DNA of 64,000 nucleotides from the human T2T-CHM13v2.0 reference genome, Homo sapiens: assembly GCF_009914755.1 (NCBI RefSeq), contig NC_060933.1; one strand, written 5' to 3'. The translations under genes and the position numbers were made by a program. Below are positions 28,599 to 51,942 of the stretch, one piece after another (the first letter of the stretch is position 1; each line of letters opens with the position of its first letter). The notes under the pieces were generated by a model, which worked only from the letters and a program-made list of their open reading frames with translations, had not been told where the DNA came from and searched no databases.

Positions 28599-30140
28599 TT
28601 CACTGTGCATTCTCGCTAACAATGTACAAGAGTTCCAGTTGCTCCACAGCCTCACTGACGCTTTGGATTGTCAATTGTTCCTCTTCCTCCTCCTCCTTCT
28701 CTTCCTCTTTTTCTTCTTCTTTTTAAAATTTCTGTCTGCTTTTTAAATGTGATTGTTCCTTAGGGTTCCCCCACTTCATATAGTCTTTTTTTCTTGGCCT
28801 GCACTCTGCCTTAGTGTTTTTATTTACTTGCATTTTTATTTATACTCATTTGTAAATATTGGTTGAACTTTTACATTGTGCCATGCATTATCAGGTGCTG
28901 AGGATACAGCAAAAGAACAAAGCAGAAAAATCCCTGCCCTTATTGGAACATATAGTCTGAAAACTTCCAAGTCTGTTCCACATCTCTTTCCTGAGCTCCA
29001 CACCCGTATATCTGGCTGTCTACTGGCCATGTTCATTTGAGATGTTCCATAGATATCTCAGAGTCAATATACCTAACCCTGAATTAATCATCTTCTTCAG
29101 CCTGCCCCCATGTTGTATTTTTTTCTCGGTGAATGATGTCACATTCATCCAGTAGCTCAAGCTAAAAACCTAAGCAATATTATTTAATCCTCCTTTCCAC
29201 ATTTTATTTACTCATTAAATGCTATTGATTTTCCCTCCAGAATATCTTATGAATCTATCCCCTTCTCTCTACCCACTCTGCCACTTCCCTAGTCCAGGCT
29301 ATCAACAGATGAGTGCACCATTCTCCTTACGAGCCTCCCTGACACCTCCTCCCTATGAATCACCAGTCCTTTCTACCCAACCAACCACCATTGGCCACAC
29401 TGTTCCACTGTTCTCTTTCTAAAATGCCAAATCTGATCCTGTCTTTCCCCTCTTAAAAGCTCTGATAGCTCTGTGTTGCCCTCCAGGTAATTCCAAATCC
29501 TTAATATTACTTGATTTCTAAACATTACCTAAGACCCATAGTCATTAGGTTCTTTCATAACTCTGTAGCCTCTCACTCTAGATATTCTGGAACTATTTTC
29601 AGCTCACTGAACATGCCTTTGCATGCATAATTTCCTTTTCCTGGGACATTTTCCCCTTCCTTTTCTCAGTACTAATGCCTAGCAAAACCTAACTATCCTC
29701 AGTAATTGTTCTGCTGGCTAGTTATGTGTTTTAATGCATTTTTGGGATAGGGAAGGAAACTTGCTTATTTAAACCGGTGTAATTTATCTTATGACGGTTC
29801 TGAGCTAAAGTGGTGAGAATATGGAGCTGGCTTGTCAGAGAACATGACTTGTTTTTTCATGCGTTAGAGATGGGCCCAGTAGATGGGATCAGATTATTCA
29901 TTCAATTTATTAGTACAGTAGATATTTACTGAGAACTTTTATGTATAAGAAACTGCTGTGGGGTGCTCAAAGATGAGGGGCAGTGTCCTGCCCAGAAAGG
30001 CTTCTTTGGGCTCACAATTGTGGTGAGAAACAGCATTGTCACTTGCCTGGAGCAATCTAAGTTGATAGACATATTCTGAGGTTCTATGTGATTTTTTTTT
30101 CCATTTTCTTTTTAAAAGAAATGAAGTAATTACCCTCTAG

Positions 30141-36860: not shown

Positions 36861-37095
36861 CTTTTGAAGACCCTGATAGTGCCGTCGATGACCGAGATAG
36901 TGACTATCGCAGTGAGACCAGCAACAGCTTCCCACCTCCTTACCATACAGCTTCCCAGCCCAACGCTTCTGTGCACCAGTTCCCTGTGCCGGTGCGATCG
37001 CCACAGCAGCTGCTACTTCAAGGCAGTTCCCGGGACTCTTGTAATGAATCTATGCAAAGTTATGACCTTGATTATCCAGAGCGGCGGGCTATCAG
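36861..37095 (+). CDS. UNC13B: UNC13B internal coding exon, 235 nt ([22 protein letters not shown]...DYPERRAI), phase 1 to 2
   Basis: ttccatag| acceptor and CAG|gtgggt donor. The [20 protein letters not shown] peptide is characteristic of Munc13-1/ubMunc13-2. Confidence 0.97.
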
Positions 37096-38254
37096 GTGGG
37101 TATTGAGCACAAAGTACTTTCTCTTCCTAATATCCAGGTCTCATGATGCAACTGGCAAGAAGAATTTGGATGCTTTAACCTGAAGAGGTAGCGTAAGTGT
37201 AGCAGTATCACCGGCCAAACTACAGTCATTTTGTGTAGATTATTAGTCTTTTTTTTCTTCCACATGTTTATACATTGCCATAAGGAATTTTATGTTTATA
37301 TATTGCCATAAGGAATACTTCTCTTCATGATCAGTGATTCTCAACTGATCAGGGCGATCCCACTTGGGGTGTATCTGCCCCACTTCCTGACTCAGTGAGT
37401 TTGTTATACCCTTTGCCAAGATTAAAAACAGAAAAAATCACAGATTGGATAGTCCTTCTTGCCTAAATATTTCCCTGGGAACTTTAGAAGAAAACCAGTA
37501 TGATTTCTTATAGCAGATTCAGTATTTTTACTGGAACTTTGTTTTAATTTATTTTATTTCTTAAATATATAAAACAATTATGTGGTTAAAAAATGTCAAT
37601 ACAGCATAAAGAGTTTCCCACCCACACTTACCTTCCTCCACCCCATCTTCTTCCTGTTTCATAATTCCCTTCCTACTGTTGTTTCTTATGTATCCTTCCA
37701 TAGACTGTTGTCATATATTTATGAGTATAAAAGCAAGTACATACATATGTGCTCTCCCCTGCCCTAAGATTAAAAAAAATTTCAGACTTAAAGAAAATTT
37801 GGAGACATAATTCAATGAAAACCCATATTCATGTTGCCTAGATTTACCAGTTGTGTTAACATTTTACCACATTTACTTTATCTCATTCTCCCTAATATGT
37901 ATTCATATACACATACATTTTCTCTGAACCACTTAAAAATAAGTTGCAGATATTGTGTTACTTCATCAGAAAGTATTTCAGCATGTTACTCCTAAGAAAA
38001 AGAACTTTATCTTATATAACCTCAATATCATGATCACACTCAAGAAGTTTAATGATGCAATGTTATTACCTAATGTTTAGACCATATTTAAATTTCTCCA
38101 GTTATCTCCATAATGTTCTGTATGTATATTTGTTCCTTTCTGGTCCAGGATCCAATCCAGAACCGTGATGCATTGCATTTGGTTTTCATGTTTCCTTAGC
38201 TTCCTTTAATTTAGCAAAAATTTCATTACCTTGGTTTTTTGGTCTTTTAAGAAG

Positions 38255-40543
<2,289 letters not shown>

Positions 40544-41027
40544 TCAAATATAACTTTCAGAAAGTTAACAGCTTGGCTTCTTTTTAGACTAAAAATTTAT
40601 CAGCAAATTTCGTTTTCTTGAAATCCCTTGATATATTTTGCTGGTATACTTTAATATTGCAAATACATTCTAGATATTGGTACAACATGTTTCATTTTTT
40701 TCATTTGTTTCTTAGAAAAATAAAAGAATTCTAAAAAGCTCACCAATGAAAAATGATTGCAAGTTGAAGCATTTAAAAATTGATATTATAGCTGTTCTTT
40801 TTCTCATATGGAATAAACTATTTGACTACATTGATATAATATTTAAGAACATGTGGATTTCCTTTTCATATTTTTTTAGTCTGAATGCTTTTTATCACAT
40901 TGGCAATTTTATTGTTCTAGTCTTCTCATTGAACATGTATTAAATCTTATAACTTCTTTCTTCCTTTTCCCTGTCTCTTCCTTTTTCTTTGCTTTATTGT
41001 TCCTCCAATTTTATCCCTTCACATCAG

Positions 41028-41330
41028 ACAAGGCTCACAGGCTAAAGATGAAAAAATTAGGATTATTTCAGCTTTCTCTGATGTTGACTATGAAGAGCAA
41101 GAAGATATACATAAGGAGATAGAGGGGAAAATATCACAAGAGTTTCTAGAAAATAATAACATAAACTTGAAGGAAGCAGAGATAAAAGAAATTAGAACCC
41201 TTTCAAAAGCTGATAAATACTACAGCCAACAAAAACAACCAAAGTATAAGAACAGGAAAAAGATACCACCTCAGAGCCAACAAACAGAATTCTCTACTGA
41301 GTTTAAGGTTGAAACTTCTGTTTTCTCCAG
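41028..41330 (+). CDS. UNC13B: Candidate 303-nt in-frame cassette exon, or 5' extension of the giant exon (QGSQAKDEKIRIISAFSDVDYEEQ...ETSVFS), phase 2-2
   Basis: ~75-nt pyrimidine tract, no AG from 40921 to 41025, acatcag| acceptor, open frame continuous with the giant ORF, CAG|gtatgc donor at phase 2. Confidence 0.6.
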
Positions 41331-44300
41331 GTATGCTCAGAAATATGATACACTAGATAGAAGAAGAAAAAAGAAATCCTTATACAATCATTTTGAAGAC
41401 AGTGAAAGAAGGCAATATGGTGAGAGATCTGAAACTAAGACTAACTACAAAAGTACATATTCTAATACTGAAAATTGTACCCTTTGCCATACTGAAAAGA
41501 AACAAAATATGGGGTACCCAGTTTTGTACCCCTACAAAAATGGATTTGTGGTTAAGAGTGGCATGCAGCGCATTAAGTTGGAAAGTCATGATTATGATCT
41601 GTCCAGTTGTTTAAGGCACTGTGAAAAGTCATCTGGCTCAAACCAGCATGTCACTAATTTTACCTCATTAGATATTCTTGAAGATTCTACTAGTAGTACT
41701 TCTGATGAACTTCTGGGTTCCCCCATTTCTGATAAGCAGGAAAATTTACAGTCACCAACATGGCATTCATCCAATGTCCACCATATTGGAGATTTTCCTG
41801 AGGAATATTATGTAGCAAATTCAGCATTGCCATTACAAAGGATGAATTGTGATGCAAAAACACTTGGAGATCTGTCTGAGTGCTCTATAGAAGAGATAAC
41901 CCCTTCCTCTATTGAGGAGCCCAAGGAGGACCGTATTGATACAATGGATGAGCTTCAGTGTTTGGTAGAAACGGTGTCAGAATATTTAGCAGAGAAGGAA
42001 GAGGAGATTAATAGATTTGGTTCACTTTCAAAAACTAAAAAATCACATAAACAAAATAGTACTCTTGATGCAGAACAGAGAACGCCTGGGGATCAAATAC
42101 CACCTTTAACTATTGTCAAGAATGACAAGGACACGGCCATCTCTTTCCCTGAGTTGACTGGAGTACAATGTGCTGTTGGTTCTTTGTTTAGTTCACTCAC
42201 AGAAAAAGTGGGTTCAGGCACAAAGCATCTAACAAACTCTGTGGAAAAGTTGGTTTCCTTAGTTCCAGAAAAAACAGAAACTCTTAATCAAATAGAGGCA
42301 ATTAATTTGGGATCTAAACCCAGAGCCATGGCAGTATTGGGGAAGGATCTTTCCATGCAATCTCCATTATCCTCTCAAAAAGATGATAATGTGAATATAG
42401 ACAGACATAGAAAAACCTCTGAAAATGAGCACATGGGTAATAAAACTGGGAGTTTATACTTTCAGAATACAACAGAAAGTATTGCAAAGGACTTGGCTCC
42501 ACAGAGTCAGAGTTCAGTTATAAAGTCGGTTTTCAGCAGGTTAAATCCATTGAAGATCTTTTCAGAAAAGGAGGAAACAAAAAAAGATGATGACCAGAGT
42601 AAGCCACCAAGAAAAGAAAGCTTTGTTGAGTGTGGTTTGGAGTTAAATAAAAGGGAAGGCACTCTTGACAATTACAGTAGTAGCATCATTGCTTTAAATG
42701 GGAGTGATGAAGAAACTACGGGCTGGTTCCAGATGCCCACAAGTGAGAATTTGTTGTCCTCCCAAGTAACCAGTGAACCTTCAAACTTAGTTAGTTCTGC
42801 AAGTAAAAATGATGAGAGTCTATTGGAAGAAAAACTCTGTATAGATCTGTCTCTTTTACCAGATCAACAAAAAATATGTGCCAAAGATACTCCAGGACAT
42901 CCTTGTATAGCTGGCAGTAGAACTGCAAATAAAGAGGTATTTTCAAAGCCATTAGAGGAGGACAAAGTTACAGGTAATGATGATTTCCTTGAGCCACTCA
43001 GAAAATCATTTAGCCAGTTTTTGCTCACTTCCCCTGAGACTTGTTCAAAGGAAAGTTTGTCAGAACCTGTGAAAATTCGCCAGGTGGAGGAAGATGGTTT
43101 AGAAAGGGGCTCTAAGAAAGATGGTCATTCCTTTTCCTTTAGTGGAAAACTAAATCTTCCATTTTTTAGAAGTCTTGGTCATTCTGAAAAGCAACAGGAG
43201 TTAAAAGAGAAAGGAAGCATTTTTCCTTTGTTTAAATTTTCTTTCACTGACAGCAAGGTTACTGTTAATGACCAGAGTTTACGTGGCTCAGCAGTAACCA
43301 CTGATGAGGAGAGCAAAAAAAATTGCCATGAAGATACCAAACATAGTTCAATAAAATCTAGTTCTGTTCCAAATATTCATAGTGATCTAGGAAAATTTGA
43401 CAGTACAGAGGAATTTAAAAAGAATGACCAGATAAATTGTCCTGAAGATGCCAAACTTAATTCAATAAAATCTAGTTCAGTTCCAAATATTCATGATGAT
43501 CTAGAGAAGTTTGACAGTATAAAGGAATTTAATAAGAATGACCAAGTAAATTGTCCTGAAGATGCCAAACTTAGTTCAATAAAATCTGGTTCAGCTCCAA
43601 ATACTCAGGATAATCTAGGGAAATTTGACAGTACAGAGGAATTTAATCAGAATGACCAAATAAATAGTCCTGAAGATGCCAAATTTAATATAATAAAGTC
43701 TGATTCAGTTACAAATATTAATAATGATCTGGGGAAATTTGGGAATATAGAGGAATTAAATCCAAGTGACCACACAGCAGGACAGAATTTTGAAAGGGAT
43801 GGCTTAGCCATCCCTGGAGTTGTGCCCAAAGAACATATAACTTCAGATCCTTTAGGAGAAGATAAGAATCTTATACAAGCAGCATCTTCAGTAGCATCAG
43901 ACTCTTCATTAGAGTGTATTTCTACCACTTCCAAATCCACTTTGGTTAATGAAATTAATGAAGATGAGGTTATAGATAAGACTTCCAAGAAAAATACCCA
44001 AGGAAGCTTCCTTTCTGGCCTGTTTAATAGGTTTTCTTCTGCTGAAAATTTGTCTAGTCAAGAATTAAATTTGAAAAATGATGACTCCCATCACAAGAAT
44101 AATACCCCAGGTTTAATCTCTGGAATATTTAACCTGCTATCAAATAGCGGTATGATTGATCATAAACCAGAGGAAGCAAAGTTCATGTCTTTAGGCAACA
44201 TGAAGAGTTTGAATGGAGATAACCATTTATCCTTGGATGAGGTCCCTGCTACTTCATGTGTGACTTCTGAGAACCCGAAGAACCATGTTGAAAAACATGA

Positions 44301-47300
44301 AACTTCTAGCTTCATAGAAGCCTCCTTATTACCTAAAGAAAACATACCATTATCTGATGCTGGGGATGATAATCATTATTGTTCCCCTACAGAGAAAAAC
44401 CAGCAAAGTGAAAAGCATCACCCCTCCTCTGAGAACATTGTACTTCACTGTGCTCCAAGTGCTCAGCTAGGTTTTTTGGAGAAATCTATGGCTAAGAGGC
44501 AAATGCCAAACCATGTTCTTGAGGCAAAACTACATGAAAATTCAAACAAGTTAAATTCACCTGTACTAAATACCAACATTCTCAATAAATCAAACAACTA
44601 TCAGGCTTTTGAAGAGATGAACAGTCCTTTCTGTTTTGAATGGGACTCTGACATAAAAGATTTGTCTAAAAATTCCAGAAAACTTCAGCCAGTTTATTAT
44701 ATGTTAAATCAAAATAGATTTCTATCAGCCGATGCTTGCTTGTGGCTTGACTCAGAAAACTCAGTGATAAATTTTTGCCAAAAAGATCAAAATGCAAACA
44801 TCTTGGAGTGGAGAACAAATCCAAACAGTGTCATTTGGTGTGACTTACCATATGAATCATTCAATCAGTTAGCATTTAATGAAGATTACTTATTAAGAGG
44901 TGATGTGTGGGCAGCTAACTCATTATATGGAAACTCTGGTCCTCTTCCAATTAATGAGGCTAATAATTCACTAGAAGAATTACCCATTGACTTAAGTTCT
45001 TCATCAGATCATGAAAAGACTACATGCCCCGTAGTTGATCAAGAATCATTAAGAATGGATGAAAACTTTGTTTTTTCAAGTTTTGGTTATGAGTACCAGG
45101 AATGGTTGTCATGTCTTGAACATGGAGTGTGGTGGCCATCAGAGGATGGGGATTATGGATATTATATGTTTCATGATGGTCAATATATCTATTCTCTTCT
45201 CACTGATTCTACTGGGCAGTATGCATATTTATTTATACCTGATTCTTATCAAGAGTATTTGGATTGTGATTTACAGACAAATGGTCTATCAAGTATTACG
45301 TTGGATGACAGCATTATTTCTGCCTGTAGTTTTAAAGTACTTGATAAGGAAGATGAAATATTTTGGTATGTTGAAGAGGAACCAATTGATGACCCTCTTG
45401 ATTTATCTTTAGCTTTGCCAAGAAGTGAGGAACCATTGTATCTAAATTTAGAAACCTTTTCACAAGTACTTAAAGAGTCAAGTTGTGACCAAAGCGATCA
45501 GCCACTAGATTTTTCAGGCTATAATCGTCAAAAGTTTAAAGGAGACTTTAGATCTTTCAAAGAAAGGCCGTGTGGTTCTGAAGACGCTGAATGTACATTA
45601 GATCTCAGAAATCAGCCCCAAACTATTAGTAATCATGTCTCAAGCAGAGATCAAATTATAGAGAGAGATAAAAACCAGCCTCTAGCTGAAGATTCATCAG
45701 TTCACCTTTCCAGTTTCCATTGGCTTCAGTCTTCTGTTGAAGAAGTTACCACTTTGGTTCATCCTGAAAATATGACTAAAGGCTCACAACAAGCAGAAGA
45801 GACATCATTAGTGAACAAAGTGGCTTCAGTATTTTCTGTTTTGGGTGCCTCAGTTGGAAGTACTTTGAAGTTTGATAAGAGTGAATCCTTAGAGGCTTTG
45901 GCCATGCAGAAAGTGAATCAGCAGTCAGATTTAGCAGAGCTCACAAATGATGGCTTTCAGTCATTAATCATGAGTAAGCAATTAGAGGGTAACTCCCCAA
46001 ATGTGGAAAAAAGTCTTCTTAAGGATTCAGAAAGACAGATAGTATCCAATGTTCAGCATCCAGAATTGATCAAAAATATAAGGCAAGAATTCTCTTTAAA
46101 TAAAAACAACCATGTGAAAAAGCAAAGTTTGTTAAAATCTGGTTTCCAGGTAAGCCAAACAACTCCTCAGGCTAAATCAGGTGTAAAAGATGATGAAATC
46201 ATTACAACAGACTCTATTTCAGTTTCTCCTGCACCTCAGCATAGTGGGGATGAGCGTGAGAATTATGAGCTTCCCCAGGGCCAGTCATCCAAAGAGTCTG
46301 ATAAAACATTATTTAAAAGTTCATTGAAACTCTTCAGTCAAGAAGAATCGTCAGTTAGTATGACAGCAAATGAAAAACAGTCATCTGGATTTTTGAATCT
46401 TTTTAAGACTCAGGTGAATAAAGAAGGATCACCAAACTTAGAAAAGATTGGTGATACAAATGTCAAGATACCACCTCAAGAAAAGAAAGAATCTTCTGGT
46501 GTTTCAAATTTTTGGGGTACCCTTGGGGATTTCTTTAAAGCCAATGTATCTCCTATACAGACAACTGAAAATACGTCTGTTTCTTCAATGACTATTAAGG
46601 ATGAGGTCAGGTCAAGTCCTACTCCTATGGAGCTAGCTAGCCAGGGTGCTGGGAACTTTCCTGCTGCACCAATTTCCTCTAAAGGGAAGGCTAGAGTTAG
46701 AAGACTGAACAAACAGACTACTATCGATGACAGTAGGTTAGAGGAATCAACTAGAGGGATCCAGGGTAATGATTTGACTGAAAAAGAGGTACCATTCAGA
46801 GACCATCTAATCCAGCAGTCACCTAATTCATCTTTTTCAACAAGTAGTCTCAAAGAGTCTTCCAGGGAGTCTTCAGTAGAAACTAGTGGTGTGACTACAG
46901 TGACAGAAGTTTCAAAAAGTAATGAAATATCCTTTGATACCCTGAGCAAGAGAAATTCAAATGAACAAGATCATTTTTCTGACAAAGACTGGAGTTTCTC
47001 TATGGCTGCAACATCTTCATCTCAACCAGAGTTATCAACCAAAAAGAGTATATTTTCTTTTCTCACTGGATCTGAAAAATCTGAGAACAGAGCCTCTGCT
47101 ACTCTACCAAGAGCCAAATCTCAGGCAGAAGGGCTATTCACACTTCCTTCATTTTTTTCCACTGCTAGCTCAAGCATTAAGAAGGATGCCTCTCATAGTA
47201 GTTCTACTTTTAGTTTCTTCAGCTTGTCCTTTTTGGATCAAAAAAAGGAGACCTCTGGGGAAAAACAAAGCATTTCAACTGTTGTTCCAGTGACCTCCCA

Positions 47301-49577
47301 GCCCTGTAAGAAGACAAATGTTTTTGTAGAGAGTGGTAGCACAATGACCAGAGAAAGTTCCAGTGGTCATAGAGATAGCATAGCCCAAGAAGTAGTTCAT
47401 GAACAGCAAATGGCACCTTGTATTTCCATTAACAACACCATTGAGGTTACCTCCCTTGCAGATGAGCTCAGTGTAGACAAGGACTGTCAGGAAAAACTGA
47501 GTTCCAATATTGTACCAGGGACATCAGTGGATTTCCAGATGAATGAATTGCAAAAAGACATTATTCCTCCTTCACCAGAATTTCAGGCACAGGCTGAAAC
47601 ATTCCTCACTGGCCCAGAGAACCTTGGGATAGCTCCCCATGAAGAAGAGGCTTTCAACCACAAAGCCTTCCCCAGTGACTCACTGTCCAACTCTTTTTCA
47701 CATGCTAAACAGTTAATTGAAAAATTCAATGATTTAGACACTTGTACTAACTGCCACCAAAATGAGAAATTTACTACTGACCCAGTGAACTTGCCATTAG
47801 AAAAGGCCCCCGATGAGGTCTTACCACAGATCCTAGAGCCAGCCTCTTCCTCTCCAGAGCCAGGGTGTGCAGGGAACCTTCAGAACCAAGATGCAGATAA
47901 AGAGGAAGACAAATTTGCATTAGGCTCTTCAGTAGACATGCTTTCAGGGTTTGTGACCAAAGTGAAATCTTTCTCTGGGAGCTTAATTGAACCTCCCAAA
48001 ACACTCTCTGGACTTTTCTCCTCTCCTAAATCTCCAAAGAAAAACTCCTTTTTCTCTCTTGCTTCTGATGTATCATCTCAGCCCCTCAAAGGTGAATTAT
48101 TTGGAATTTTCAAAAGTCCCAAGCCAGAGCCATACAAACAAGAATCATCTCTCCCAGCTACTTCATGGCTTCAAAATGGTTGTTCCAGAGATGCTGTAGG
48201 ATCAGTACCTCCAGAAAGGAGAGAAGCTGCCTTTACAGCACTAAGTTCAGAATCTACTCTCAGTGACTGTAGAATGACTGTGGTTAGTGCAAAGCCAGAA
48301 TCAGATATCTTGACAGATGATCCTAAACTAACAACCAAAATGGAAGACAATAATACTCCTGAAAATATTCTGGAACCTCAACGTTCTGAAACAATTAATA
48401 CATCTTCTTTCTCGGGTGATGATACTGGGCAAGGAGTATTGTCTCTGAGTGATGAAGGAGACATGGGGATATTGCAAGCTACAGACACGGAGGCATCGTT
48501 AGAAGCAGAGAACTTTGCGCTGCCAGCACAGTTGCATCCAGATCCTACCTGCATTGCCGAAGAGCTTCCTCCTCCCATTCAGCCACCTCTTCCTCTTGAG
48601 CCAGAGCCAGCTATTCAAACTGCCTCCACAAACCAAGACTTACTGGAGCTGCATCCAGCCAGTTCACTAGAAACTGATACTATGCTGTTCAATGATGCAA
48701 GTGTGAGCCAGAGCACCACTCTGGAAACCGAAGGGCACTTTTCTCATCCTCTGCTGGAGGACCCTGTGCTTGCTGCCAGAGAAAGTTGTGAGATAATTCA
48801 TGCCCAGAAAGATCCACCTGTAGTACCCCAGGAAACAGAGCAGTCAAGACCACGTTTTGAGATCCCAAATGTGACCACTTGGCCAAAGCTTCGTTTGCCA
48901 TCCTCTGCTACTAACCATGGGAAACCACTGAGCTCTTTCTTTTCCTCACCTCTCCCCTCTGGCAATAGAGCAGCAGAGACTGGTTTAATGTCCAGTTTTA
49001 AGAAGTTGTCAACTCTATTTGAGGGAAGTAGTGAGGGGAAAGGGAGTGTATTAGCAAGTGATTCAAAACTAGGATTTGGAAAGGTAGATCTTTCATTTCC
49101 ATGGCCAAAAGAGAACAAAGGGGTCCCTGAACAAATGCCTACAGAATCCTCCCCTCCAGTTTTAGTTACTAGCAGTGATCAGGACCTTAACTCCAGTGAG
49201 GCTAACAAAGCTTTGAAGTCTTCTCAAATATCTGGGGCCAGTGCTCAGCCAGGTAAAGTCTACACTCAGCCCTCTGGGACCTCTGAGCAGCTGGTGGCCA
49301 GTCCAGAGGTCTGTGCTCAGGGGCTTTCAGGGTCTGGAGAAGGGGGAAACCAGCAGGAAATCTCAGCATCTGGAGAACACTGGGATACCAAAGCCAACCT
49401 GTCTAGCCCCGCCTGTCCTTCAGGGAAACATGAGGAAGAACCCTCCACTGTCTCTGAGATATTTCACCAGCTAGAAAAACAAGAAGAGGAGGCAGTACCT
49501 GCCAGTACTGACTCTGATTTGAATGTACAGCAGCCAGTCACTCTGAATGACATCAAGGAGCCCATGACCAACAAAAG
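41331..49577 (+). CDS. UNC13B: UNC13B giant alternative coding exon, 8247 nt / 2749 codons; the frame runs on to TAA at 49654-49656 if unspliced
   Basis: 2829-aa ORF in the track with no TE-like sequence. The ttctgttttctccag| acceptor is in phase with the upstream exon. A phase-2 AG|gc boundary at 49577 joins in frame to 51628, and 1591+2749=4340 aa matches the recalled length of the long UNC13B isoform. The 3' boundary is less certain than the 5'. Confidence 0.85.
43321..43770 (+). repeat. Coding tandem repeat, 114 bp (38 aa) x ~4, inside the giant exon
   Basis: Units start at 43321, 43435, 43549 and 43663; approximate consensus NCPEDAKLxSIKSSSVPNIHxDLGKFDSTEEFNKNDQI. Confidence 0.95.
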
Positions 49578-50328
49578 GCCTGTTCTTAACTCAAGCATCA
49601 TAAATGGCTTTAAGGAATTGACCATTTATGATGCAAGTGACTTAGTGGTAGATTAATCATAGCTTGCTTTTTATCCTTCTTGTGTCTTTCCTAGTACCCG
49701 AGCTTCATGTTAATTAGGGGTTAAATAACAAGAACTCAGTGTGTGGGTATTTTCATCCTCCCCTTCTCTCTCTGCCAAATGTAATTCATTTACTGGAACA
49801 AGGAGCTTCCTGCTTAAAGCAAAAGCTGGGCCCCCGATATTTACTCACTCTGGTTTGCTCTGCCTTGTATAATGTGAAATGGAGAAAGGAGGGCAGGAAG
49901 AGGTAGTAAGTAGTTGGTGGTATATATTAACTACAACTACATGATAGGCTAGGATGCTTCCTTGGGCCTTAGGCACTTATATCTTGTAGGAGATGGGGAT
50001 AGATCTATTTTGCTTTGTTTTTTCAAGTCTTCTAAGATGCTTTCTCCAGTGGCAATGAGTGTATTAAGCAAAATACAAAGTGCAAAGGATGCCTTGGGAT
50101 AGTCTGTATTCCCATATCCTATTCCATACAGATTTGCATAGTTTCTTCCATGGTATCATCTCTGCCTTTTACTACCCTCAAGGCTGATGTCTGATAAATG
50201 CTTTGAGTAAAATCTCACAGGAACTCAGAGCTGTCCTTTGCTGTAGTTCTTCAGTCTCGAGCAGTGTACAGGATCTATCTGCAGAGGGTACTGTTATTTC
50301 CCCTAAGAAGCAGTACCATACAGTACAG

Positions 50329-51627: not shown

Positions 51628-51942
51628 CCCCACCAGCAGCAGTAGGTATGGCTCCTCCTGTAATGTGAGTCAAGGAAGCTCTCAGCTAAGTGAACTAGAC
51701 CAGTATCACGAACAAGATGACGACCATCGGGAGACGGACTCGATTCATTCTTGCCACAGCTCTCACAGCCTGTCCAGAGATGGCCAAGCAGGTTTTGGAG
51801 AACAAGAGAAACCCTTGGAGGTGACAGGTCAAGCAGAGAAGGAGGCAGCATGTGAACCCAAGGAGATGAAAGAAGATGCCACAACCCACCCTCCCCCAGA
51901 TCTGGTGCTGCAAAAAGACCACTTCCTAGGTCCCCAGGAGAG
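51628..51942 (+). CDS. UNC13B: UNC13B internal coding exon, 315 nt ([22 protein letters not shown]...FLGPQE), phase 2-2
   Basis: ctcacag| acceptor and GAG|gtaggc donor; peptide matches recalled ubMunc13-2. Confidence 0.96.

What the first reader, a model, noticed from the sequence alone, without database searches (positions are those of the whole stretch)
41316..41336. Dual-specificity / recursive splice site at the start of the giant exon
Seen: ttctgttttctccAG|GTatgc is both a good acceptor and a good donor. The upstream exon ends in CAG, so splicing it to 41331 regenerates CAG|GTATGC; re-splicing from there to 51628 yields exactly the short isoform. All junctions are phase 2. Inference: four in-frame outcomes (skip; 303-nt exon; 8247-nt exon; 8550-nt composite), with the giant exon acting as a recursive-splicing exon that is removed by default because this donor outcompetes the weak distal one.
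Basis: partly seen in the sequence, partly recalled or inferred. Interest (0 to 1): 0.8.

Follow-up and report, generated by a model that had tools for sequence, protein, structure and literature searches.

The report
UNC13B giant-exon acceptor resembling a donor
The start of the 8.2-kb optional exon of human UNC13B does read AG|GT, so it could in principle be cut twice, but this looks like a by-product of the coding sequence at an internal alternative acceptor of an older, longer exon, and nothing seen here shows it is used as a donor.

Summary
The site reads ttctgttttctccAG|GTatgc at 41316-41336. The upstream exon ends in CAG, all junctions are phase 2, and all four proposed products are open. 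The distal donor is a weak GC donor, AAG|GCCTGT.

The recursive-splicing reading has no positive support.
- The 303 nt upstream (41028-41330) are conserved coding sequence from birds to human. Of the 78 gene models that contain the upstream exon, 38 start the giant exon at the 41028-type acceptor and 40 at the 41331-type. So 41331 is an internal alternative acceptor.
- The donor-like letters are the codons Arg-Tyr-Ala (AGG TAT GCT). The +5 G exists only where Ala replaces Pro: 3 of 117 sequences (human, chimpanzee, gorilla). Another 15 of 117 lack Arg.
- No protein of 258-2625 aa carries the 101-aa piece alone.
- The supplement tables I could search in five splicing papers do not list this site.
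- Such exons are common: 3.6% of human exons, mostly constitutive and repressed by the exon junction complex.

Verdict: at most a possible new member of a known kind. No read data were available, so use as a donor remains untested.

The parts
36861..37095 (+). Upstream coding exon of UNC13B. It ends ...ATC AG (CAG|gtgggt), phase 2.
   Evidence: It translates to ...DYPERRAI.
40965..41027 (+). Long pyrimidine-rich tract and upstream acceptor cacatcAG| in front of 41028.
   Evidence: 29 of 37 pyrimidines at -40..-4, and C at -3. The Arg codon formed across this junction is kept in composite gene models and in read-through open frames of mammals and birds.
41028..41330 (+). 303-nt in-frame extension of 101 codons. 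It is conserved coding sequence and is not an exon in the human RefSeq table supplied with the finding.
   Evidence: the frame is open; it is homologous in mammals, marsupials and birds. Mean identity is 65.6% against 64.3% for the first 100 aa of the giant exon, over 66 sequences, and insertions and deletions are in frame.
41316..41336 (+). The reported site: pyrimidine tract, AG|GT, then ATGC. It is the annotated acceptor of the giant exon and lies in the codons TCC AGG TAT GCT (Ser-Arg-Tyr-Ala).
41331..49577 (+). Giant alternative coding exon, 8247 nt and 2749 codons. No Pfam family matches it.
41417..41425 (+). Donor-like ATG|GTGAGA (GT at 41420), 89 nt into the giant exon. It could help define the acceptor, as the downstream donor does in the exon-based model of recursive splicing. 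This is inference only.
   Evidence: matrix score 4.75.
49575..49583 (+). Annotated distal donor AAG|GCCTGT, a GC donor with C at +3.
   Evidence: The Lys|Arg-Pro read-through is kept in mammals including marsupials, so C at +2 looks old.
49578..49656 (+). Read-through tail RPVLNSSIINGFKELTIYDASDLVVD followed by a stop. It is conserved at the protein level in many mammals.
51628..51942 (+). Downstream exon with acceptor ctcacAG|CCCCAC, phase 2.

Best explanation
The AG|GT at 41330/41331 is first of all a 3' splice site. It is an internal, in-frame alternative acceptor inside an old coding exon of about 8.55 kb, whose conserved sequence and older-looking acceptor begin at 41028.

Its resemblance to a donor comes from the codons it sits in (AGG TAT GCT, Arg-Tyr-Ala). 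The Tyr codon fixes T at +2 and A at +3. The +5 G, which makes the donor 'good', comes from a Pro-to-Ala change seen only in human, chimpanzee and gorilla.

I infer that the giant exon is usually left out because it is poorly defined: it is 8.2 kb long and has a conserved weak GC donor. The 37095 donor then pairs directly with 51628.

By sequence the human exon qualifies as a putative recursive-splicing exon (an exon whose 5' end rebuilds a donor once the upstream intron is removed). A second splicing step from the regenerated CAG|GTATGC is possible. I expect it to be at most a minor route, held down by the exon junction complex as at most such exons.

Shown here: the sequence, the frames, coding conservation of the extension, use of both acceptors in gene models, and lack of conservation of donor quality. 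Inferred: the route by which the exon is skipped.
For: - Sequence, phases and open products.
- The 101-aa extension is coding and conserved from birds to human. The frame is open, insertions and deletions are in frame, and mean identity is 65.6% against 64.3% for the start of the giant exon in 66 sequences.
- Of the 78 vertebrate models that contain the upstream exon, 40 join it to the 41331-type acceptor and 38 to the 41028-type.
- The tripeptide at the site is RYP in 96 of 117 sequences and RYA in 3 of 117 (human-identical open frame, gorilla, chimpanzee). Another 15 of 117 have no Arg: Ser 6, Lys 3, Gly 2, Thr 2, Trp 1, Cys 1.
- A Pro codon forces CC at +5 and +6. On a crude matrix this drops the donor from 4.19 to 0.16, while the annotated GT donors in the window score 2.44-5.74.
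- The distal donor is GC, with no good GT within about 130 nt upstream or 120 nt downstream.
- No protein model carries the extension without the giant part.
Against: - No RNA reads, lariats or nascent-RNA data could be examined, so use of 41331 as a donor is untested rather than excluded.
- By the published competition rule (a strong regenerated donor beats a weak exon donor), the human arrangement of CAG|GTATGC against AAG|GCCTGT favours a second splicing step if the 41331 acceptor is used first.
- Exons of this kind that depend on the exon junction complex tend to have a strong acceptor and a weak donor, as here.
- In public read archives, 105,875 of 441,107 AGGT acceptors also act as donors at more than 10 reads. 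Some donor use is therefore not unlikely.
- My donor scores come from a matrix with frequencies I recalled, not from MaxEntScan.
- Codons in other species were inferred from proteins, not read from DNA.
- The 117 sequences are not independent. For example, 18 are macaque isoforms.
Confidence: 0.6

Rival explanations
1. The giant exon is a recursive-splicing exon: exon 37095 is first joined to 41331, the regenerated CAG|GTATGC then outcompetes the weak GC donor and is spliced to 51628. Two-step removal is the main route to the short isoform.
For: - The regenerated donor scores within the range of the gene's constitutive donors (4.19 against 2.44-5.74), and the distal donor is GC with C at +3.
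- The competition rule and the weak-donor bias of such exons are in print.
- A donor-like site 89 nt downstream, at 41420, could help define the acceptor.
Against: - The route cannot be told from direct skipping in the mRNA.
- In a screen of AGGT sites in 900 brain total-RNA samples, whose targets join the upstream exon to the GT, the only UNC13B entry lies in another intron, at GRCh38 chr9:35369700. No table row begins with the five coordinate prefixes I searched around my estimate of the site's GRCh38 position.
- UNC13B does not appear in the searchable supplement tables of Blazquez 2018, Hoppe 2023, Zhang 2018 or Duan 2024.
- The +5 G is limited to African apes and human, and Arg is lost in several lineages, so a conserved mechanism is unlikely.
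- Most such exons are repressed by the exon junction complex.
- The intron concerned is 14.5 kb, short for vertebrate recursive splicing (this last point is recalled).
Confidence: 0.1
2. A true dual-specific splice site at a low level. The 41028 acceptor and the 41331 donor define a 303-nt cassette exon that adds 101 aa to the short isoform in some tissue.
For: - The product is in frame with 0 stops.
- The upstream acceptor is strong and the donor decent.
- 303 nt is an ordinary exon length.
- About 24% of AGGT acceptors in read archives also act as donors.
Against: - Among proteins of 825-2625 aa, 1 of 137 candidates matched, and that one also carries the giant part.
- Among proteins of 258-823 aa, 0 of 133 candidates matched.
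- None of the other 17 human RefSeq transcripts in the table supplied with the finding has an exon at 41028.
- Limits of these searches: the protein library is clustered at 90% identity and indexed by short words, so a rare isoform could be hidden.
Confidence: 0.15
3. The 41331 acceptor is the minor or over-annotated one. In human, as in the NCBI macaque models, the giant exon really starts at 41028, and the AG|GT is just an Arg-Tyr codon pair inside the exon.
For: - The extension is conserved coding sequence.
- 38 of 78 models use the upstream acceptor, including those of two macaque species and a capuchin.
- The upstream acceptor has the longer pyrimidine tract.
Against: - A curated human RefSeq transcript uses 41331, and no human RefSeq transcript in the supplied table uses 41028.
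- 40 of 78 models, including a wallaby, a turtle and a budgerigar, use the internal acceptor.
- Its pyrimidine tract and -3 C are good.
Confidence: 0.12

Closest known systems
Annotated recursive-splicing exons repressed by the exon junction complex (Blazquez et al. 2018, PMC6224609; passages read)
   Same: The exon starts with GT and the preceding exon ends in CAG, so the spliced junction rebuilds a donor. The exon's own donor is weak. Skipping keeps the frame.
   Different: Those exons are of ordinary size and mostly constitutive. This one is 8.2 kb, alternative, and ends in a GC donor. No evidence of donor use or of dependence on the exon junction complex exists for it. UNC13B is not in the three supplement files I could search; mmc1.pdf and mmc5.pdf were unreadable.
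Dual-specific splice sites with an AGGT core (Duan et al. 2024, PMC10809524; abstract and section 6 read)
   Same: An AGGT core with a pyrimidine tract upstream and a donor-like sequence downstream, at an annotated acceptor.
   Different: That class is defined by reads (more than 10 as a donor and more than 10 as an acceptor). Only acceptor use is documented here, through annotation. Only 0.71% of annotated 3' splice sites behave this way. UNC13B is absent from the two supplement files I searched.
Intronic recursive splice sites of long vertebrate genes (Sibley et al. 2015, known to me only as cited; lists in Zhang 2018, Hoppe 2023 and the 2026 preprint PMC13622621)
   Same: An AG|GT that regenerates a donor, with competition against a downstream donor deciding whether the exon is kept.
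   Different: Those sites lie in very long introns and flank short cryptic exons. Here the whole skipped stretch is 14.5 kb and the 'exon' is conserved coding sequence. The site is not in the lists I searched.
Ordinary in-frame alternative 3' splice sites inside a coding exon
   Same: Two acceptors 303 nt apart in the same phase. The sequence between them is conserved and coding, and each acceptor is used in gene models of different species.
   Different: The distance is large, the exon is giant, and the inner acceptor happens to be followed by GT.

Membership tests
Putative annotated recursive-splicing exon (Blazquez 2018) | The junction with the preceding exon rebuilds a 5' splice site with a MaxEntScan score of at least 5.52. 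| tested here: inconclusive
   The junction is CAG|GTATGC, with 7 of 9 matches to CAGGTAAGT and a crude matrix score of 4.19, second best of the 5 GT sites scored in the window (4 annotated donors plus this one). MaxEntScan itself was not available. From recall I expect the score to pass the threshold.
Putative annotated recursive-splicing exon (Blazquez 2018) | The regenerated donor is actually used (lariats, PRPF8 iCLIP, skipping after depletion of the exon junction complex). | not testable with these tools
   No read data were available. UNC13B is absent from the paper's three searchable supplement files.
Dual-specific splice site (Duan 2024) | AGGT core. | tested here: met
Dual-specific splice site (Duan 2024) | Junction reads show use both as a 3' and as a 5' splice site. 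| not testable with these tools
   Acceptor use is annotated (table supplied with the finding; 40 models). Using gene models as a stand-in for donor use, none was found.
Vertebrate intronic recursive splice site (Sibley 2015 type) | AGGT conserved across vertebrates. | tested here: not met
   Inferred from proteins only. Arg is missing in 15 of 117 sequences, and the +5 G is possible in only 3 of 117. DNA of other species could not be fetched.
Vertebrate intronic recursive splice site (Sibley 2015 type) | Saw-tooth read profile or intermediate reads in total or nascent RNA. | not testable with these tools
   The site is not among the 3,187 semifinalist sites of a 900-sample brain screen. Only another UNC13B intron is listed there.
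In-frame alternative 3' splice site within a conserved coding exon | Two acceptors in the same phase, coding sequence between them, both used. | tested here: met
   Use is shown only through gene models of other species for the 41028 acceptor, and through human RefSeq for 41331.

The most novel reading that the evidence does not exclude
In the common ancestor of human, chimpanzee and gorilla, a Pro-to-Ala change at the third codon formed at the 41331 junction (CCN to GCT) put a G at +5 of the regenerated donor. This turned a 2,749-codon Munc13-2 exon, conserved across amniotes, into an efficient recursive-splicing exon. In these species the giant isoform would be partly removed by a second splicing step under control of the exon junction complex. 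That would be a lineage-specific change in the output of a synaptic priming gene caused by a single coding substitution.
Probability: 0.08. Interest if true: 0.6.

Novelty: new member of a known kind. Interest (0 to 1): 0.3.

Why it matters
If the GT were used, it would be an extreme case of a recursive-splicing exon: 8.2 kb long with a GC donor. It would also offer a way to control a giant, uncharacterised Munc13-2 isoform.

As things stand, the more useful results are about annotation:
- The conserved coding sequence of the giant exon starts 303 nt upstream of the human RefSeq exon start.
- Both acceptors appear in vertebrate gene models.
- The donor-like sequence is a recent by-product of coding change.

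The giant exon itself deserves attention more than the AG|GT does. It has 2,749 codons, no Pfam family, is conserved from birds to human, and did not turn up in my literature searches.

Tried and rejected
- I tried to fetch DNA of other species to read the codons at the site. The alignment-based scans of genome contigs and viral contigs found 29 and 45 pattern matches, and none was a relative. Conservation of AGGT could therefore only be inferred from proteins.
- Literature searches found nothing on this exon: 'UNC13B' + 'recursive splicing' gave 0 papers; 'UNC13B' + 'giant exon' gave 0; 'Munc13-2' + 'large exon' gave 1 paper, whose passage concerns Drosophila unc-13; 'NM_001371189' gave 1 unrelated paper, seen in the listing only; 'UNC13B' + 'large exons' gave 2 papers, one being the Drosophila passage above and the other seen in the listing only, with an unrelated title.
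- Pfam on the giant exon gave 0 families.
- MaxEntScan and SpliceAI were not available. I used a position matrix with recalled frequencies and say so wherever it is cited.
- I considered and rejected that the 303-nt open frame is chance. It is homologous and open in mammals, marsupials and birds.

Full report
**Observation.** The window reads ttctgttttctccAG|GTatgc at 41316-41336, with AG at 41329-41330 and GT at 41331-41332. The upstream coding exon 36861-37095 ends in CAG, followed by gtgggt. Joining 37095 to 41331 therefore regenerates CAG|GTATGC. A second acceptor, cacatcAG|ACAAGG, precedes 41028, and 41028-41330 is 303 nt. The giant exon 41331-49577 is 8247 nt and open in exactly one frame (0, 156 and 315 stops in the three frames). 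Its annotated donor is not GT but GC: CAAAAG|gcctgt. The observation and its arithmetic are correct.

**Chance.** I used a crude dual-quality rule: a pyrimidine-rich -20..-4, C or T at -3, no AG just upstream, and a donor score at least as high as this site's. Under it the window has 2 AGGT sites on the + strand (29487 and 41331) and 0 on the - strand. First-order Markov simulations of the window give 1.71 +/- 1.22. The motif alone is therefore not beyond chance. Its position at an annotated exon start is also not rare: Blazquez et al. 2018 found that 3.6% of human exons (6,837) rebuild a usable donor at the preceding junction, and 93.8% of these are constitutive (passages). Within the 8.7-kb open frame, only 5 of 401 GT sites score as high. 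On a matrix whose frequencies I recalled (not MaxEntScan), the site scores 4.19, while the four annotated GT donors of the window score 2.44-5.74.

**What lies around the site.** The open frame does not start at 41331. It runs from 40933 to 49653, 2907 codons. The 101 codons of 41028-41330 read like the rest of the giant exon. A protein search with the first 400 residues from 41029 returned 304 vertebrate proteins, of which 120 were listed. I located four human pieces in those 120:
- 40 join the upstream exon directly to the giant exon (the 41331-type acceptor). These include apes, several Ensembl monkey models, whales, carnivores, an elephant, a wallaby, a turtle and a budgerigar.
- 38 join it to the extension and read on into the giant exon (the 41028-type acceptor). 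These include NCBI models of two macaque species, a capuchin, cheetah, rabbit, bats, a squirrel, a mole-rat and many birds.
- 39 are bare open frames or models without the upstream exon.
- 3 had no match to the start of the giant exon.

The extension aligns from human to birds with in-frame insertions and deletions only. It is as conserved as the start of the giant exon: mean identity 65.6% against 64.3% in 66 sequences, with the extension at least as conserved in 43 of them. The Arg codon formed at the 41028 junction is also kept. I conclude that the old exon is the 8.55-kb one, and that 41331 is an internal in-frame alternative acceptor. According to the table supplied with the finding, human RefSeq annotates only the inner acceptor.

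**Where the donor-like letters come from.** The site lies in the codons TCC AGG TAT GCT (Ser-Arg-Tyr-Ala), directly in front of the strongly conserved motif Y-P-Q-K-Y-D-T-I-D-R-R-R-K-K-K. The Tyr codon fixes +2 and +3 of the would-be donor. Positions +5 and +6 are the first two bases of the next codon. In 117 aligned sequences the tripeptide is:
- RYP in 96. A Pro codon forces CC at +5 and +6.
- RYA in 3: the human-identical open frame, gorilla and chimpanzee.
- RYT in 1 and RCP in 2.
- No Arg in 15: Ser 6, Lys 3, Gly 2, Thr 2, Trp 1, Cys 1.

Ser at a junction built on the upstream AG means the exon's first base is C or T, as in the porcupine and desman models. In those species the acceptor stays but the GT is gone. 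With CC at +5 and +6 the crude donor score falls from 4.19 to 0.16. The 'good donor' is thus a recent feature of human and the African apes, and it is explained by a coding change. These sequences are not independent (18 are macaque isoforms), and codons were inferred from proteins. I could not fetch DNA of other species.

**The distal donor.** AAG|GCCTGT is weak: GC, C at +3 and T at +4. No GT donor of any quality lies from about 130 nt upstream to about 120 nt downstream; the best is CAA|GTGACT at 49637, score 1.12. Read-through open frames in other mammals, including marsupials, keep Lys|Arg-Pro, that is C at +2. The GC donor therefore appears old.

**Is the GT used?** No read data were available here. 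The indirect checks were as follows.
- No protein of 825-2625 aa carries the 101-aa piece without the giant part. Only 1 of 137 candidates matched, and it is a 2595-aa open frame that includes the giant part. None of 133 candidates of 258-823 aa matched. The 303-nt exon thus has no gene model in any species. The caveat is that the library is clustered at 90% identity and indexed by short words.
- UNC13B is absent from the three searchable supplements of Blazquez 2018 (two PDFs unreadable), from Hoppe 2023, from Zhang 2018 and from Duan 2024.
- A 2026 preprint screened every AGGT inside annotated introns, using targets that join the upstream exon to the GT, in 900 brain total-RNA samples. It lists one UNC13B site, at GRCh38 chr9:35369700, in another intron. 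Nothing in its table starts with the five coordinate prefixes I searched around my estimated GRCh38 position of this site. This is weak negative evidence, because transcripts carrying exon 36861-37095 may be scarce in cortex and hippocampus (recalled, not tested).

In favour of some use: by the published rule a strong regenerated donor beats a weak exon donor, and exons that depend on the exon junction complex tend to have weak donors. In read archives about a quarter of AGGT acceptors also act as donors at more than 10 reads, 105,875 of 441,107, although only 0.71% of annotated acceptors do.

**Mechanism I commit to.** The site is an alternative acceptor. The giant exon is usually skipped in one step, because an 8.2-kb exon with a GC donor is poorly defined. 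The regenerated donor is a by-product of the coding sequence that may support a minor second splicing step in human, normally held down by the exon junction complex (confidence 0.6). Recursive removal as the main route gets 0.1, a real 303-nt cassette exon 0.15, and 41331 being the minor or over-annotated acceptor 0.12. These are not fully exclusive.

**Comparison and novelty.** Recursive-splicing exons and dual-specific AGGT sites are described kinds. This would at most be a new, unusually large member. I found no paper on the giant UNC13B exon itself. That exon has no Pfam family yet many invariant columns from birds to human.

Noticed in passing
window 41028-49577 (+): The giant UNC13B exon encodes about 2,850 residues with no Pfam family. 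It is nonetheless conserved from birds to human, with many invariant columns, including a block rich in Trp, Tyr and Gly near residues 1356-1404 of window:41029-49653. My literature searches found no description of it.
   Followed up: partly
window 49578-49656 (+): The 25 codons that read through the GC donor (RPVLNSSIINGFKELTIYDASDLVVD, then a stop) are conserved at the protein level in rodents, primates and marsupials. Several laurasiatherian sequences (camel, bats, a musk deer) end right after RPVLN. This could be an alternative C-terminus, with the giant exon as last exon as in the hamster and guinea-pig models, or a conserved splicing control element next to the weak donor.
   Followed up: partly
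window 29467-29492 (+): A second AGGT with both acceptor and donor quality (agctctgtgttgccctccag|GTAATT, GT at 29487) lies inside the 36.6-kb intron between exons 165-222 and 36861-37095. By position it is a more classical candidate for an intronic recursive splice site.
   Followed up: no
window 46147-46155 (+): A near-consensus donor, CAG|GTAAGC, lies inside the giant exon (GT at 46150). It scores 7.17, higher than any annotated donor in the window, and is not in the phase of the 41331 site.
   Followed up: no
proteins P0102, P0105, P0110: Bird models (pigeon, eagle, owl) carry an extra 42-residue segment between the upstream exon and the extension. This suggests a further small exon that has no counterpart in the human table for this window.
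   Followed up: no
window 41028 (+): According to the supplied table, human RefSeq has no transcript starting the giant exon at the conserved upstream acceptor. NCBI models of two macaque species and a capuchin do use it. This may be a gap in the human annotation.
   Followed up: partly
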